In this document: one piece after another, positions 30,001-36,000 of the stretch
Position numbering within the stretch: the first letter of the stretch is position 1
How the letters are laid out: each line of letters starts with the position of its first letter
Assembly (NCBI GenBank): GCA_000002445.1
Contig: CH464491.1
Coordinates: 4,800,001-4,864,000, forward strand
Length of the DNA stretch: 64,000 nt
Reading direction: 5' to 3'
Origin: Trypanosoma brucei
Taxonomy: Eukaryota
Made by a program: the position numbers

Positions 30001-33000
30001 ATATTATATTGTTACCTACAAATACTGGTCATTATTAATATATCTAGTGAGAATACATCAAAGTCACTTCACACTTACAGAACACCATACTCCTTTCCTC
30101 CTGATACTGTTTCTCTTTCTGTTCTTCTTCACAGTTGTACATTAGGGTCCGCAATCAGATTCAAAAAAAATCAACACAACCTCCGTTTTGGCATCTATCC
30201 ATTTTGTGTGAATTACTGGGAAGCATCAGTTCCTGCATCATTTTATTCTGTAATTTTATTATCGACCGCGTATTCTGCTGTTAAACGGTGTATTTTCTTT
30301 TATTTTTATCTACTGCTTATACCATGGCGAATTACGTGGTAATGCCACTATTATTATACACAGCACTTTAGTTCTTTTCTTTCTCCTGTATCATTTTCCT
30401 GAGTATGATTAAATCCACCGTCAGGTTTGTATTTAAAACCGCGCACATTCTATCTCCTTATCTCTGCCTCTTCCTCCCTCTTAGGTTCCTTCAACAATAT
30501 TCCTCAGTCTATTTTCCGTTCCATCTCATACTCACTTACTCCCATTGCACCATTTTAAATATAGTATCATTAGAATTGTTTTAAGTGAATATATTTTTTG
30601 ATTTCCACTCGATATGCGCCACCTATCTTATTATAATATTCATACATACACACTCAAAACATTCTCCTATCATTATCATTATCCTTTCTATTATAAACCT
30701 AACTAACATCCATACAGAAAAAGGCAAAACTAAAATAGTATAGGAGTACTTTTTCATTTTTTCACTCTGCAAATTGTTCCCATAGTTTACCATCATACAT
30801 GTTACTTAAGTTTTAAGATTTTACAAATTCTCAATATTTTCATTAATTTGCACCGTTTTATCAAAAAGTATTAAAAAATTTCAATCTTTAAAAAATTATG
30901 TCAAAATAAAAAATATTTCATAAATTATATAAGATTAAGAAAAATACTTATAATGCTATAATACTTAAAATGATACCAAACTCACAAAAGTAGCGCCCAT
31001 ACTCAGAGCAAATTTCTTATCGACGAGAAAACTGGAATCTTTGAAAGGTTCGCCTTCCTATTTGCAATCCGGAGATTTGCGGTCTGTTTGATCTTTCCCT
31101 TTGCATTTATCTGTTGTTGTTCCTGCAGCTCCTGCTTCTGTTCCTGCTGCGTTTGTTTGCTCTTTAACTTTACTTTCATCTGCTGTACACTTTTCATCTG
31201 TTTCACTTGTCCCTGCCCATTTGCAGCCTTCATCTATCCAGGTTTTGTTAGAACTGTGTTGGGCGCAAGCATTTTTTGCATTTTGTTCGTTTTCCTGAGC
31301 CTGGGCGGGCTTGGGGTTCGCTGTTGTGGATACTGCTGCTTGTGCCTGCGTGTACTGCTCTATGCTGGCGATAAAGGCTCCTGCTTTTTCAGTGTTTGCG
31401 CTTAGCTGGCGACCGATGCTGTCTACTGCCGCTACGCTCTCTTCGTGGTCTTTTATGTCGTTTACTATCTGGTTTAGAGCAGCTATCCAACTGATGTCGT
31501 CTATTGTGTTTTCTGCCCCTTGGTGGACGTCCGTGTACTTCAGACAGAGCCAGCTGTTTGCAGAACCACTACAGGCTGCTCCTGTATCTAGTTTGCCTAT
31601 TAACGCTGATGTGTCGCTGGCGGTGAAATGAGCTTTAACATTGCTGATGAGAGAGGCGAGCCGTGCCGCTGTGACCTGTTTTTTGCCTGTTGCCGGGAAA
31701 AGTTTTCTCAGCTCCTGCATTACATTGTTTTGTGGGGCGGTGCTTGATGTCCATTGCGTCTTTAGGGTTAGATGCTTGTTGCACGCTTTGTCTATCCCGT
31801 TTGAGGAATCCCTGGCGCATACGCAGACCAGTGCCGCCACCACTGTTTTCGCTTTGTTGTCTTTGGCGGGGCCGTCGCAGTTGCCTTTTCGGTCTCTGCC
31901 GGCTGTTGCGTCAAATACCTTGTTAGGTGATAGTGTGTTTTCTGTGGCGACGTTTTCGCCATAGAGAGCTGTATTTATCTTCTCTTTTAGCTGTTCGTTA
32001 GTTAGGATTTTGTTGTCTGCTTTAATCTGCTGTAGTTGAGTTGCAAGGGCTAAATGTTCGTTGGCTAGTTGCAGTATTGCTTGCTTGGCTATTGATAAAT
32101 GCTGGACTGTTCTGGAATGGAGTTTGTGGTCTTTGAGTTTTTGCTGCATGCCGTTGCTGTCCTTTAGTCTTTGTGCCGTTTGAGCCCATTCCTTCCATTT
32201 TGTATCCCAATCTGTGTTGTCGCTGAACCGAGTGTCTTTGGTTTCCGGAAATGTTCCTTTATTCTTGGGGTCTTCGAACACAGAGTGCCAGCTTCCACCG
32301 GCAGGGGACATGTTCAAGTCGAGGATTTCGTGATGTGCTGTGTCGTAGCTTGCTTTAGGTTGAGTTAGCAAACTGCGGCCGCCTCATAATGCCAGAATTT
32401 CACAAGGGGGACCTGCTGTTGCTGCACTGTCACCTTCTGGTACTACCGCATCACCTTTTTTTACTACAAGTAACACTAAGATGGTTCTTATCATGATTTG
32501 TTTGATCATTTTAACTAAATTTCCTCTTGAATGGCGACCTAGTGTTTTGAGAATTGCTGAAGGCTGCTGGTTTTGATTATCGTGTGTGTGAACATGATGT
32601 TGCTACCTCTGTGTGAAAACGGAACAAATTTGTTTAGATTATTTTTGGTTTTTAGTTGCTAACCAGCAGTGAGCTAACGTATTGGCACAGCAATACGACA
32701 CTTTTTTGCTCTTGCATTCGCAGCTTGTGGCGTTTTTGGTTATTTTCTTTGGCATAGGCGGCTTTTATCTCTCAACTACATGCTAATGGTCGCTGTGGGA
32801 AAATAGCTTTGAGTTGGAGCTTCTGCGGCTTGTGTTTTATGCGCTCTGGCGAAAATACCGAATTGCGGCACATGCTTTTTTATTCCTTTTTGTTTCACGA
32901 GTCCGCAGGGTTAAGCTACGTTGCATGCGCAGTGCTACGGGTTGCTGCCTTATTTGTTGTATTTTTTGGCATTGATTTTGTCTTGAAATATGTGCTTTTG

Positions 33001-36000
33001 ACAAGTGAACTCTGCCCATTGGCCGTTTATTCTTCGCAACATTGAGGTTTGGTTTCTGCCACAAATTGGTTTGTGCGATGTTAGGTGCAGCTGATGATAC
33101 TGGTAAGGAGAGATATGATGGAATGCTATGGTGCTGCAGGTTCCTTGAGCTGACGATCTATTTTCAGCTGTCGCGTGCATTACATAATGACATTCCTGCA
33201 TATCTACGGTTAACAACCCCTCCAATTTCAATTTATTCCTTATAACTTCTAAAACCATAATATCCTCATTGAGTGCACTAAAATCCATATATGTTTCGAA
33301 ATTTCTGAATTTAATTGGTGATTTCACCATGTCTTTCAAAGGTTCATAATCAACAATTTCCCTGACAACGTCCCTAGATAAAGTGGACGCGTATCCAATT
33401 GTGTGCCATGTAATTTCGTCACTAAAATCTTTATAGTATCCAACTGCTATTCTCATATTCAGTTTTCCCCGCGGCAATATTTCAAGATAATTTAGATACA
33501 ATGGCACTCTCATAAATATATTACAATCTGCTTTCATTATATATGGATTAGTAGGTTTAAATATTGCCTCTGAGAATTCGAACCAAAAATATGTTTTCCT
33601 ACTCATAGTGAGTTCTGCTTCCCATCCCCAATTTCCATTATCTCGAATTTTCTTATTTGTTGTTTGATTCACATCACATAAAGGTAAAATAATAATATCC
33701 TCATTTAAATAACCCTCTTCTTCAGCAATTTTTCTGAGCTCGAAATTATTATTTGTATGAGGTGAAAGGGCATATACTATAAGTAACTTCTCAGTAAACT
33801 TATTTTCCTTTCTCGCAACTTCATCGTAGCTCCAACAATTTTCTCTCTGCAAGTTCCTCCTTTGAAATCTTTCATCATTATCTACTGAAGGTATTCCAGC
33901 TACAACCAAATATTCTTCACATCCTTCGACACAAATTTCATATACTCATCATCAATAATTTCAAGTGAAATGAATTCACCCTCACCAAACAAGCTGTAGT
34001 GACAGACATAAACTAATCCCCATAATAATAAAGGAGAAACAGCATACTCTTTCATAAATATATTCAGTATACTACATAAGATACTACTCTCATACTAATG
34101 AAAACTTTAAAACATCTTATGAAATCATAGAGGTTATTAAAAGATATGTCAGTTGTTACAATAATATGATTAGTGAAGAAGCCACGTGTTTACCTATAAA
34201 AGTGATACATTGATATTATTATAATATAGATTTTTGAATGGTGTACAGTCGGTGGAAACAGCCTATCTTTGGGCATGCATCTACATTTTTCGTTTTAGAA
34301 GTTAAATTCAAGCAAAAATACTCCTAAACGATAGACAAACTACTACATACATTGTTATCGGAATTCAAGTAGCAAGATATAGTAATTCTCCTCACGCATA
34401 CTATGAAGTTTGAAAGTTATTTGTTCTAAATACCATAATCCCTACTGGTTTCATGAGACTCGAATCTGCGTCAGCTTATCAGCTATTGCTGTTATTGTTG
34501 ATAAAACTATTATCTTCTCAGCAGTATTTTCAATGTATAAGTGAAAATACTGTGCACCATTGACGTCTTGTACATCATTTTGTCGCTTGGTGTGTTGTTG
34601 CATGATTTCACCTTATTCTCTATTGCCGTCAAATAACTCGGTTCTTGCTGTTTATACGCCTGACGAGCCGACTACAGTTGCCTTTACACTGTACTCTGCC
34701 TTTGTCTCACTGTTTTCATCACTGTTTTGTGTAAATTATTCCCATACTCATGTCTTTCTGTGAAACTTGAAATATTCAATCACTCTTTTTCCTATCTTTC
34801 CGTAGTTTTTATAATAATATTTCTTTGTGTATCCTGTTCTCCGTCAATCAAATCATTACTTTTTATCGTTGCAATAGTTTTAAGCACTTCTATTTCTCCC
34901 TTGCATTTATTCATGGAAAACACTCTCGTTATTATAATATACGTATACACACACTCACAACACTCTCCTATTACTATCATTATCATCGTTCTAGGTATAT
35001 TACTAATGTCCGTAAAAGAAATAAGATAAAAAAATTAGAATGGCACTCATTTTTAATACCCTATCACACTAATAATTTGGAGTCATAGGTACGTACATAC
35101 CAAAGTTTCCGATTTTTAATTCTTAAAATTTCCGAAAAATTACCAATATTAACAAAAGTGTTAAATATATTAAATTTCAAAAATTATAAAAATGAGAAAA
35201 CAGTCATAAAGTGCTACAAACTCACAAAAGCATCCATCAAAGTCAATTTTCTATTTGCAAGAAAACTTGAATCTTTGCATTTTTCTTCGATCCATCCACA
35301 GTTAGCTTTTTCCCCTGCTTCTAATCCCTTATTCTCTTTTTCATAGTTTGCTTTATCATTGTGTTTTGTACACTTATCTCATAGTGTTGTTGTCTCTCCT
35401 GCAGCTTGAGATTGTGTTACAGGGACACCCTTTTCTTTTGCTTTTGTTGAATTAAATTTGCACTTTTTATCGTCGGCGCTGTCTTTTTGATAAGTACAAT
35501 AAAGCTTGGTGTTGCAGTCAGTATCTTTCGTTATTCCTTCGCATTCTTCTTTCTTGGCTTGAGTCGATTCTTCTGTCGCTTCTGCTGCCTTCGACGGGCT
35601 GTCGGTCTTTTCGACTGTCTGCTGGAGCTTCGCTGTCGCTTCTACTTCGTCCCCTATGTTGTACGCAATTTTTAGGTTCATTACAGTTGCTTTTTGAGGG
35701 GTTTTTGATTTTGTTCTGCCTGCTGTTTTCGTTCCAGTAGGGCGGCTGCTGCTATTATGGCTCTGGCAAATGTTAGGTCGTCCCACTTGTCGCCGGTGGA
35801 TGTTATTGACGTACTGTACCTGACGCAGAGACCGTTGTTGCTGTCGCCGTCGCAAGTGCCGCTCGCTGTCCAGCCTAGATAGGCGGCGTCGTTATGGACG
35901 GTGACTGCCGAATGCAGGTCCTGCAGAGCTGTCCTCAGCGATTGGGCCGTGGCGTATGTTGTGCCGCTTTGACTGCAAAGCTTTCGTACCGCGTCGTATG

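What the first reader, a model, noticed from the sequence alone, without database searches (positions are those of the whole stretch)
32950..34055. GT31 beta-1,3-glycosyltransferase pseudogene sitting in the 70-bp–X–VSG cassette slot
The motifs KLLIVYALSPHT…FELRK, YIMKADCNIFMR and GYASTLSRDVVREIV…EDIMVLEVI match the beta3-glycosyltransferase family, with a type-II anchor upstream in a shifted frame. It occupies the position between the 70-bp repeat at 34920 and VSG 30966-32509 that is occupied by ESAG3-like pseudogenes in three other cassettes. Glycosyltransferase paralogues in VSG arrays may feed the diversification of surface-glycan enzymes.
Basis: partly seen in the sequence, partly recalled or inferred. 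Interest (0 to 1): 0.5.

Follow-up and report, generated by a model that had tools for sequence, protein, structure and literature searches.

The report
Dead glycosyltransferase gene in VSG cassette
This is a broken copy of a trypanosome sugar-adding enzyme gene, lying between a 70-bp repeat and a silent coat-protein (VSG) gene in a Trypanosoma brucei-type subtelomeric array; such copies are a known, ordinary part of these arrays.

Summary
[quoted passage not shown] The literature places this family in CAZy GT67, derived from a beta3GT (GT31-like) ancestor. A model built from the family alignment is closest to the GT31 enzymes B3GNT2, B3GalT5 and B3GalT6.

It is a pseudogene:
- TAG at codon 2.
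- A 2-nt deletion in the signal-anchor region.
- A 19-nt deletion in the stem.
- The catalytic DDD (DxD) motif reads DCN.
- 10 of 60 family-conserved positions are replaced, against a mean of 3.7% in other members.

The layout is also confirmed: one 70-bp repeat unit (about 34925-35000), then the GT pseudogene, then a VSG pseudogene (32509-30966). ESAG3-like pseudogenes fill the same slot next to four other VSGs in the window. A T. equiperdum contig carries the same 70-bp / GT pseudogene / VSG / 70-bp layout, with different lesions.

Published genome papers already describe glycosyltransferase genes and pseudogenes as a regular subtelomeric component. The finding is correct but ordinary. I found no evidence that the copy does anything; it is most likely a passenger in a VSG cassette.

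The parts
34925..35000 (-). Single 70-bp repeat unit (TRR-rich run plus GAGAGTGTTGTGAGTGTGTG core at 34948-34967), the 5' edge of the cassette
   Evidence: Exact match to the core motif; six matches to the core (0-3 mismatches) in the window against 0 expected. Aligns with the other window copies and two copies in L001. No tandem array here.
34078..34128 (-). 5' flank of the GT gene, conserved with the T. equiperdum copy
   Evidence: The blastn match of window 34128-33173 to L001 9307-10284 (75% over 979 nt) starts about 50 nt upstream of the ancestral ATG.
34072..34077 (-). Ancestral start codon ATG (34077-34075) followed at once by a TAG nonsense codon (34074-34072)
   Evidence: DNA alignment with L001, which has ATG AGC here; coordinates.
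34000..34077 (-). Frame a: remnant of the short cytoplasmic tail and type II signal anchor (M*YTEYIYERVCCFSFIIMGISLCLS)
   Evidence: Matches P0004 MKNIERIYAIIGCLSFIVMVINILVS and L001 MSHIGGIYATVSCLIFILMGISLFVS.
33998..33999 (-). Site of a 2-nt deletion (frameshift 1) inside the anchor-coding region
   Evidence: Window GTCA--CTAC against L001 GTCACTCTATGG; frame arithmetic.
33906..33998 (-). Frame b: stem region (YSLFGEGEFISLEIIDDEYMKFVSKDVKNIW), the same frame as the spurious ATG at 34055
   Evidence: tblastn of P0004 residues 23-58 to 34013-33906, frame -3; translation.
33905..33925 (-). Junction of a 19-nt deletion (frameshift 2). Its exact position is ambiguous because imperfect direct repeats flank it
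   Evidence: L001 has AAAGCTGAAGATTATATGA between ATATTTGG and TTGT; five residues (KNEGY / KAEDY) are missing relative to all homologues.
32950..33905 (-). Frame c: catalytic (GT-A) domain, open to the TAA at 32952-32950
   Evidence: tblastn of all 13 homologues in frame -2; alignments A1 and A3; AF2 model with pLDDT 85 is closest to GT31 structures.
33520..33528 (-). Degenerate DxD motif: GAT TGT AAT = D-C-N where the family has D-D-D
   Evidence: All 12 homologues covering the site have KxDDDIF; D-D-D is at least 90% conserved in 67 sequences. It aligns with the DDD of human B3GNT2. Changing DCN back to DDD in silico (in a construct that also restored five stem residues) brings back a weak PF01762 hit.
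32510..32949 (-). 440-nt spacer between the GT stop codon and the VSG start codon
   Evidence: No similarity to the equivalent spacer of L001.
30966..32509 (-). VSG (B-type N-terminal domain plus C-terminal domain) with two in-frame stop codons: the VSG pseudogene of this cassette
   Evidence: PF13206 E 8.7e-50 and PF10659 E 6.9e-06. Translation shows stops at codon 42 and 32 codons before the end of the translated stretch.

Best explanation
[quoted passage not shown] It sits as a passenger in a subtelomeric VSG cassette, in the order 70-bp repeat, GT pseudogene, VSG pseudogene. It cannot make an enzyme. Translation from the ancestral ATG stops at codon 2. Two deletions (2 nt and 19 nt) separate the signal anchor and stem from the catalytic domain. 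The metal and nucleotide-sugar binding DDD motif is DCN.

Shown here: family membership, the lesions and the position in the cassette. Inferred: (a) the copy was inactivated fairly recently and independently of other copies; (b) it persists and spreads only because recombination that duplicates and shuffles VSG cassettes carries along whatever lies between the 70-bp repeat and the VSG, the same way ESAG3 pseudogenes occupy that slot elsewhere in the window.
For: Homology. E 6.7e-121 to T. brucei 927 family members, several carrying PF01762. A profile search finds 195 members, all from Trypanosoma among the 120 best listed.

Lesions. TAG at codon 2, a 2-nt deletion and a 19-nt deletion. DDD is DCN where every homologue has DDD. 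The copy deviates at 11 of 61 columns that are at least 90% conserved; one is the start-codon artefact, leaving 10 of 60. The mean in 57 other members is 3.7% and the maximum 14%.

Pfam. No PF01762 hit for this copy at E up to 10, against 9 of the 13 homologues aligned with it in A1. Changing DCN back to DDD (with five stem residues restored) gives E 0.0093.

Fold. The AF2 model from 67 sequences (pLDDT 85, pTM 0.86) best matches the GT31 enzymes B3GNT2, B3GalT5 and B3GalT6 at E about 1e-10. Other GT-A families score about 1e-5.

Context. 70-bp repeats, VSG_A and VSG_B ORFs, ESAG1 and an ingi reverse transcriptase are present. ESAG3-like pseudogenes occupy the same slot in four cassettes.

Independent second example. 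T. equiperdum contig L001 has a 70-bp repeat (8464), a GT pseudogene (9357-10534), a VSG_B (10849-12240) and another 70-bp repeat (12658). Its lesions are two +1 frameshifts, at least two in-frame stops and NDD; none is shared with the window.

Substitution pattern. Window against L001 gives dN/dS 0.205 over 242 codons, with differences of 55/30/86 by codon position. Most divergence therefore predates inactivation.

Literature. GT67 has 19 genes 'excluding predicted pseudogenes' (PMC8477195). Glycosyltransferases are 1.1-1.5% of subtelomeric genes (PMC2854126). [quoted passage not shown]
Against: A 319-codon frame is still open, and the dN/dS against the T. equiperdum copy is low, so decay is not advanced. 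Expression was not tested. The hitch-hiking mechanism is inferred from position only. The spacers and the VSGs of the two GT cassettes are not detectably related, so no recent duplication of a whole cassette was demonstrated. The source genome and its official annotation could not be consulted.
Confidence: 0.93

Rival explanations
1. The copy is kept as sequence raw material. Like VSG pseudogenes, array GT pseudogenes would donate segments by gene conversion to functional GT67 genes and so diversify glycan-building enzymes.
For: GT genes are reported as subtelomeric and variable among strains (PMC4288722). The low dN/dS of 0.2 between two broken copies would fit occasional exchange with selected genes. 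The close subfamily contains two sequence types.
Against: I saw no mosaic pattern in the alignments. The nearest full-length family members are only 36-40% identical, too distant for efficient homologous exchange. All close relatives in the database are themselves truncated. The low dN/dS is explained more simply by divergence before inactivation.
Confidence: 0.04
2. The locus still yields a product with a function: for example an N-terminally truncated, catalytically dead, lectin-like protein from an internal ATG, or a regulatory RNA.
For: The 319-codon frame remains open. The predicted fold is well formed when modelled with the family alignment.
Against: The 319-codon frame has no ATG until the M of ELTMSRK, about 100 codons in. 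A product from there would lack the signal anchor and the first strands of the GT-A domain. Conserved-site erosion is about five times the family mean. The copy lies in a silent VSG array among pseudogenes. The AF2 confidence reflects the intact relatives in the alignment, not this sequence.
Confidence: 0.02
3. The frameshifts are assembly or sequencing artefacts and the gene is really intact.
For: Subtelomeric arrays are hard to assemble (PMC4288722).
Against: The lesions include a 19-nt deletion and base substitutions (TAG at codon 2; three substitutions turning DDD into DCN; ten conserved-site replacements). These are not typical homopolymer or indel errors. The neighbouring VSG and ESAG3 copies are pseudogenes too.
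Confidence: 0.01

Closest known systems
[quoted passage not shown]
   Same: Clear sequence homology across the whole catalytic domain (59-67% identity to truncated T. brucei 927 entries, 36-40% to full-length members). It has the same ancestral architecture: short tail, signal anchor, stem and GT-A domain, about 380 codons. It also has the subtelomeric location reported for many family members.
   Different: Not intact: nonsense at codon 2, two frameshifting deletions, DDD changed to DCN, and ten replacements at conserved sites. No identical protein is in the databases searched, and the closest is 67% identical.
Animal GT31 beta-1,3-glycosyltransferases (B3GNT2, B3GalT5, B3GalT6; Pfam PF01762 Galactosyl_T)
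   Same: They are the nearest solved folds (Foldseek E about 1e-10, TM 0.55-0.65). The family profile aligns its KxDDDIF segment to the KGDDDVF segment (DDD motif) of B3GNT2 (E 0.013). PF01762 hits 9 of 14 aligned sequences.
   Different: Sequence identity is only 13-16%. CAZy places the trypanosome genes in a separate family, GT67. This copy gives no PF01762 hit, and even with DCN changed back to DDD and the stem residues restored it scores 16.2 bits against a cut-off of 23.
ESAG3-like pseudogenes in VSG array cassettes
   Same: Same position and orientation, directly upstream of a VSG on the same strand (a 70-bp core match lies upstream of two of the four ESAG3 copies). Also non-functional passengers: 28949-29257, 37005-37896, 46521-47526 and 62425-63528.
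   Different: A different gene family. tblastn with ESAG3 proteins finds nothing in the GT cassette or in L001.
GT pseudogene cassette in T. equiperdum contig CZPT02000575.1 (L001)
   Same: Same order: 70-bp repeat, GT pseudogene, VSG_B, 70-bp repeat. The distance from the 70-bp core to the GT ATG is almost the same (871 against 874 nt). The GT unit is 75% identical at the nucleotide level.
   Different: All lesions differ (two +1 frameshifts, in-frame stops, NDD). The spacers are not detectably similar beyond controls, and the VSGs are only 23% identical.

Membership tests
Trypanosome UDP-Gal/UDP-GlcNAc-dependent glycosyltransferases (CAZy GT67) | Significant full-domain sequence similarity to named family members | tested here: met
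   E 6.7e-121 to 2.4e-37 for 13 members; 195 members with a profile; single locus in the window.
Trypanosome UDP-Gal/UDP-GlcNAc-dependent glycosyltransferases (CAZy GT67) | Catalytic DxD (DDD) motif for the divalent cation and UDP-sugar (PMC8477195) | tested here: not met
   The window has D-C-N (33528-33520); all homologues have DDD. This fits a dead member, not an active enzyme.
Trypanosome UDP-Gal/UDP-GlcNAc-dependent glycosyltransferases (CAZy GT67) | Type II topology: N-terminal signal anchor in frame with the catalytic domain, with an ORF of about 370-400 codons | tested here: not met
   An anchor remnant is recognisable, but codon 2 is TAG, and 2-nt and 19-nt deletions put anchor, stem and catalytic domain in three frames.
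Trypanosome UDP-Gal/UDP-GlcNAc-dependent glycosyltransferases (CAZy GT67) | Glycosyltransferase activity | not testable with these tools
   Activity is not expected given the lesions.
GT31 / Pfam PF01762 Galactosyl_T | PF01762 match above the gathering score | tested here: not met
   No hit at E up to 10. With DCN changed back to DDD and five stem residues restored, 16.2 bits against a cut-off of 23. Relatives do match (9 of 14, best E 1.3e-07).
GT31 / Pfam PF01762 Galactosyl_T | GT-A fold closest to solved GT31 enzymes | tested here: met
   Foldseek top 30 matches are B3GNT2, B3GalT5 and B3GalT6, E 1.6e-10 to 3.6e-08. Caveat: the model reflects the family alignment.
GT31 / Pfam PF01762 Galactosyl_T | CAZy assignment to GT31 | tested here: not met
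   The literature assigns the trypanosome family to GT67, 'evolved from an ancestral beta3GT' (PMC8477195).
Subtelomeric VSG array cassette (70-bp repeat, upstream region, VSG) | 70-bp repeat upstream and a VSG downstream on the same strand | tested here: met
   70-bp core at 34948-34967; VSG_B plus C-terminal domain at 32509-30966; the next 70-bp repeat is at 30647.
Subtelomeric VSG array cassette (70-bp repeat, upstream region, VSG) | The same slot is filled by other passenger pseudogenes (ESAG3-like) in neighbouring cassettes | tested here: met
   ESAG3 identity of the 62422-62967 ORF; four ESAG3-like remnants mapped upstream of VSGs.
Pseudogene | Disabling mutations relative to intact homologues, and relaxed constraint | tested here: met
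   One nonsense codon, two frameshifting deletions and loss of DxD; conserved-site deviation 18% against a mean of 3.7%.

The most novel reading that the evidence does not exclude
The close subfamily consists of the window copy, the T. equiperdum copy and eight T. brucei 927 entries. It has no intact member in the protein collections searched. Yet two independently broken copies differ with dN/dS of about 0.2, and both sit about 870 nt downstream of a 70-bp repeat and directly upstream of a VSG. This does not exclude a cassette-borne GT lineage that is, or was until recently, functional in some strains. Such a gene would be copied into the active expression site together with its VSG, coupling a change of glycosyltransferase to an antigenic switch.
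Probability: 0.05. Interest if true: 0.65.

Novelty: already known. Interest (0 to 1): 0.12.

Why it matters
It matters little on its own. It confirms that the silent VSG archive carries decaying copies of non-VSG genes (GT67, ESAG3) in the stretch that would be co-transposed with a VSG. For annotation, it gives exact lesion coordinates and corrects the family label from GT31 to GT67 (GT31-like fold). The one point that might repay a genome-wide look is that GT pseudogenes recur in the 70-bp-to-VSG slot in two Trypanozoon genomes, and their substitution pattern shows they were under purifying selection until shortly before they broke.

Tried and rejected
- The look-up of encoding contigs for the T. 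brucei 927 proteins P0002, P0003, P0006 and P0007, and for the window's ESAG1 ORF, found nothing on record. I could not identify the source record or obtain 927 DNA for codon analysis. Only the T. equiperdum locus was retrieved.
- Direct Pfam and PDB sequence searches with the window ORF gave nothing. Family membership had to come from homologue searches and profiles.
- The first AF2 run, with 14 sequences, was unusable (pLDDT 38.5). I repeated it with 67 sequences.
- The word-indexed protein search missed ESAG3 for the 62422-62967 ORF. The exhaustive HMMER search found it.
- I tested whether the 870-nt spacer between the 70-bp repeat and the GT is homologous between the window and L001. The global-alignment z of 3.9 is no better than unrelated spacers (z 1.9-3.7), so the test is inconclusive.
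- I considered that ORFs 24542-25456, 57723-58574 and 50710-52224, which have no Pfam hit, were the ESAG3-like genes. They look like A-type VSG N-terminal domains instead.
- I looked for mosaic structure in the protein alignment and saw none.
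Full report
**What is there**

Neither gives a Pfam or PDB sequence hit on its own.

A search of the large protein collection returns 13 proteins. [quoted passage not shown] The best is a T. brucei 927 entry at E 6.7e-121 and 67% identity. A profile search extends this to 195 family members; the 120 best listed are all from Trypanosoma species. tblastn shows this is the only copy in the window.

**Which family**

Nine of the 13 aligned relatives match Pfam PF01762 (Galactosyl_T, the GT31 domain), but the window copy does not. A profile of the family hits human B3GNT2 (GT31) weakly (E 0.013), through the segment that carries the DDD motif.

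An AlphaFold model built with 67 family sequences is confident (pLDDT 85, pTM 0.86). Its best solved-structure matches are all GT31 enzymes: B3GNT2, B3GalT5 and B3GalT6, at E about 1e-10 and TM 0.55-0.65. Other GT-A families follow at about 1e-5. This model reflects the intact relatives in the alignment.

The literature states that these T. brucei genes form CAZy family GT67 and derive from an ancestral beta3GT. It counts 19 genes "excluding predicted pseudogenes", each with type II topology and a DDD motif (PMC8477195). "GT31-like" is correct as a resemblance. GT67 is the family.

**Why it is a pseudogene**

I aligned the DNA with a related locus from T. equiperdum (L001; 75% identity over 979 nt) and the protein with the homologues. 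This reconstructs an ancestral CDS of about 382 codons running from 34077 to 32950. The lesions are:

1. ATG at 34077 is followed immediately by TAG (34074-34072).
2. A 2-nt deletion at 33999/33998 lies inside the signal-anchor region. The true anchor remnant is M*YTEYIYERVCCFSFIIMGISLCLS. The ORF from the ATG at 34055 (MKEYAVSPLLLWGLVYVCHY...) reads that stretch out of frame.
3. A 19-nt deletion lies within 33925-33905. It removes five stem residues and shifts the frame again.
4. The DDD motif is D-C-N (GAT TGT AAT, 33528-33520). Every homologue has DDD.
5. The copy departs from the family at 11 of 61 columns that are at least 90% conserved. One is the start-codon artefact. The others are T24N, G40E, L45V, A113S, D129C, D130N, G153R, L194M, G220L and E268P. 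The mean in 57 other members is 3.7% and the maximum 14%.

Changing DCN back to DDD in silico (in a construct that also restored the five missing stem residues) brings back a weak PF01762 hit (E 0.0093). Loss of the motif therefore probably explains, at least in part, why Pfam does not see this copy. The 319-codon frame has no ATG until about codon 100, so no anchored enzyme can be made.

**Context**

The window is a Trypanozoon subtelomeric VSG array:
- The 70-bp repeat core motif matches at six places on the minus strand (0-3 mismatches): 20282, 26657, 30647, 34948, 48040 and 60414, against none expected (five of them aligned).
- Many VSG_A and VSG_B ORFs.
- An ESAG1 ORF.
- An ingi-type reverse transcriptase.

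The cassette here runs from the 70-bp unit (about 35000-34925) through an 871-nt spacer, the GT pseudogene (34077-32950) and a 440-nt spacer to a VSG (32509-30966). The VSG has two in-frame stops, and the next 70-bp repeat is at 30647.

The ORF at 62422-62967 matches bona fide ESAG3 proteins. tblastn with ESAG3 maps remnants at 28949-29257, 37005-37896, 46521-47526 and 62425-63528. All are on the minus strand and each lies just upstream of a VSG. There is none in the GT cassette.

**A second example**

The T. equiperdum contig L001 shows the same order: 70-bp repeat (8464), 874-nt spacer, GT pseudogene (9357-10534), VSG_B (10849-12240), 70-bp repeat (12658). Its lesions are two +1 frameshifts, at least two in-frame stops and NDD in place of DDD. 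None is shared with the window copy. The spacers are not similar beyond control level, and the two VSGs are only 23% identical. This is not a recent duplicate of the whole cassette.

Over 242 alignable codons, dN/dS between the two copies is 0.205 (dS 0.87). Differences by codon position are 55/30/86. Most of their divergence therefore accumulated under purifying selection, and each copy broke independently and fairly recently. The dS value is near saturation and the estimate is rough.

**How it most likely works**

It does nothing enzymatically. The best-supported reading is a dead passenger. A GT67 gene that came to lie between a 70-bp repeat and a VSG is duplicated, moved and retained by the recombination that maintains the VSG archive, and it decays as the neighbouring VSG and ESAG3 copies do. 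The homology, the lesions and the position are shown. The hitch-hiking step is inferred.

Rival readings are a sequence donor for GT diversification, a residual product, and an assembly artefact. I found no support for any of them.

**What is known already**

Genome papers report glycosyltransferases as a regular subtelomeric component, 1.1-1.5% of subtelomeric genes in T. b. brucei and T. b. gambiense (PMC2854126). They are also described as "frequently found in subtelomeric regions" and variable among strains, with multiple pseudogene copies in T. evansi (PMC4288722). The finding is correct but belongs to a known kind.

One point may be worth a wider survey. The close subfamily has no intact member in the collections searched, despite its signature of past selection and its recurrent placement in the stretch that would be co-transposed with a VSG.

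**Verdict**

Novelty is low and interest is low.

Noticed in passing
window 30966-32509 (-): The VSG of this cassette is itself a pseudogene with no frameshift. It has two in-frame stop codons, at codon 42 just after the signal peptide and 32 codons before the end of the translated stretch, just upstream of the hydrophobic C-terminal tail.
   Followed up: partly
window 62425-63528 (-): A full-length ESAG3-like copy (60% identity to ESAG3 over all 368 codons, single frame) with three in-frame stops lies directly upstream of VSG 62364-60928. More fragmented ESAG3 remnants are at 28949-29257, 37005-37896 and 46521-47526.
   Followed up: yes
window 41799-45973 (+), with related pieces at 15829-16327, 39007-39253 and 45998-46242: An ingi-type retroelement (RVT_1 ORF of 752 aa plus a C2H2 zinc-finger ORF) is inserted downstream of the 70-bp repeat at 48040 and the ESAG3 remnant. 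Short, 96-99% identical ingi/RIME-like fragments occur at two other sites.
   Followed up: partly
window 13472-14476 (+): An open 334-codon ESAG1 ORF (PF03238, E 3.8e-113) lies on the opposite strand to most VSGs of the window. No identical protein is on record in the contig index.
   Followed up: no
window 24542-25456, 50710-52224, 57723-58574 (-): Long ORFs with no Pfam hit look like divergent A-type VSG N-terminal domains: alanine-rich helices and weak mutual similarity of 25-31%. The 504-codon ORF 50710-52224 starts with ATG and may be an intact VSG.
   Followed up: partly
L001 (T. equiperdum CZPT02000575.1) 8464-12677: A second 70-bp / GT pseudogene / VSG / 70-bp cassette. The distance from the 70-bp core to the GT start is nearly the same as in the window (874 against 871 nt), although the spacer sequences are not detectably similar.
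   Followed up: partly
protein database, relatives P0001-P0006, P0009-P0011: Every close relative (over 50% identity) of this copy in the protein collections is truncated (177-345 aa), and most also show raised deviation at conserved sites. No intact member of this T. brucei subfamily was found.
   Followed up: partly
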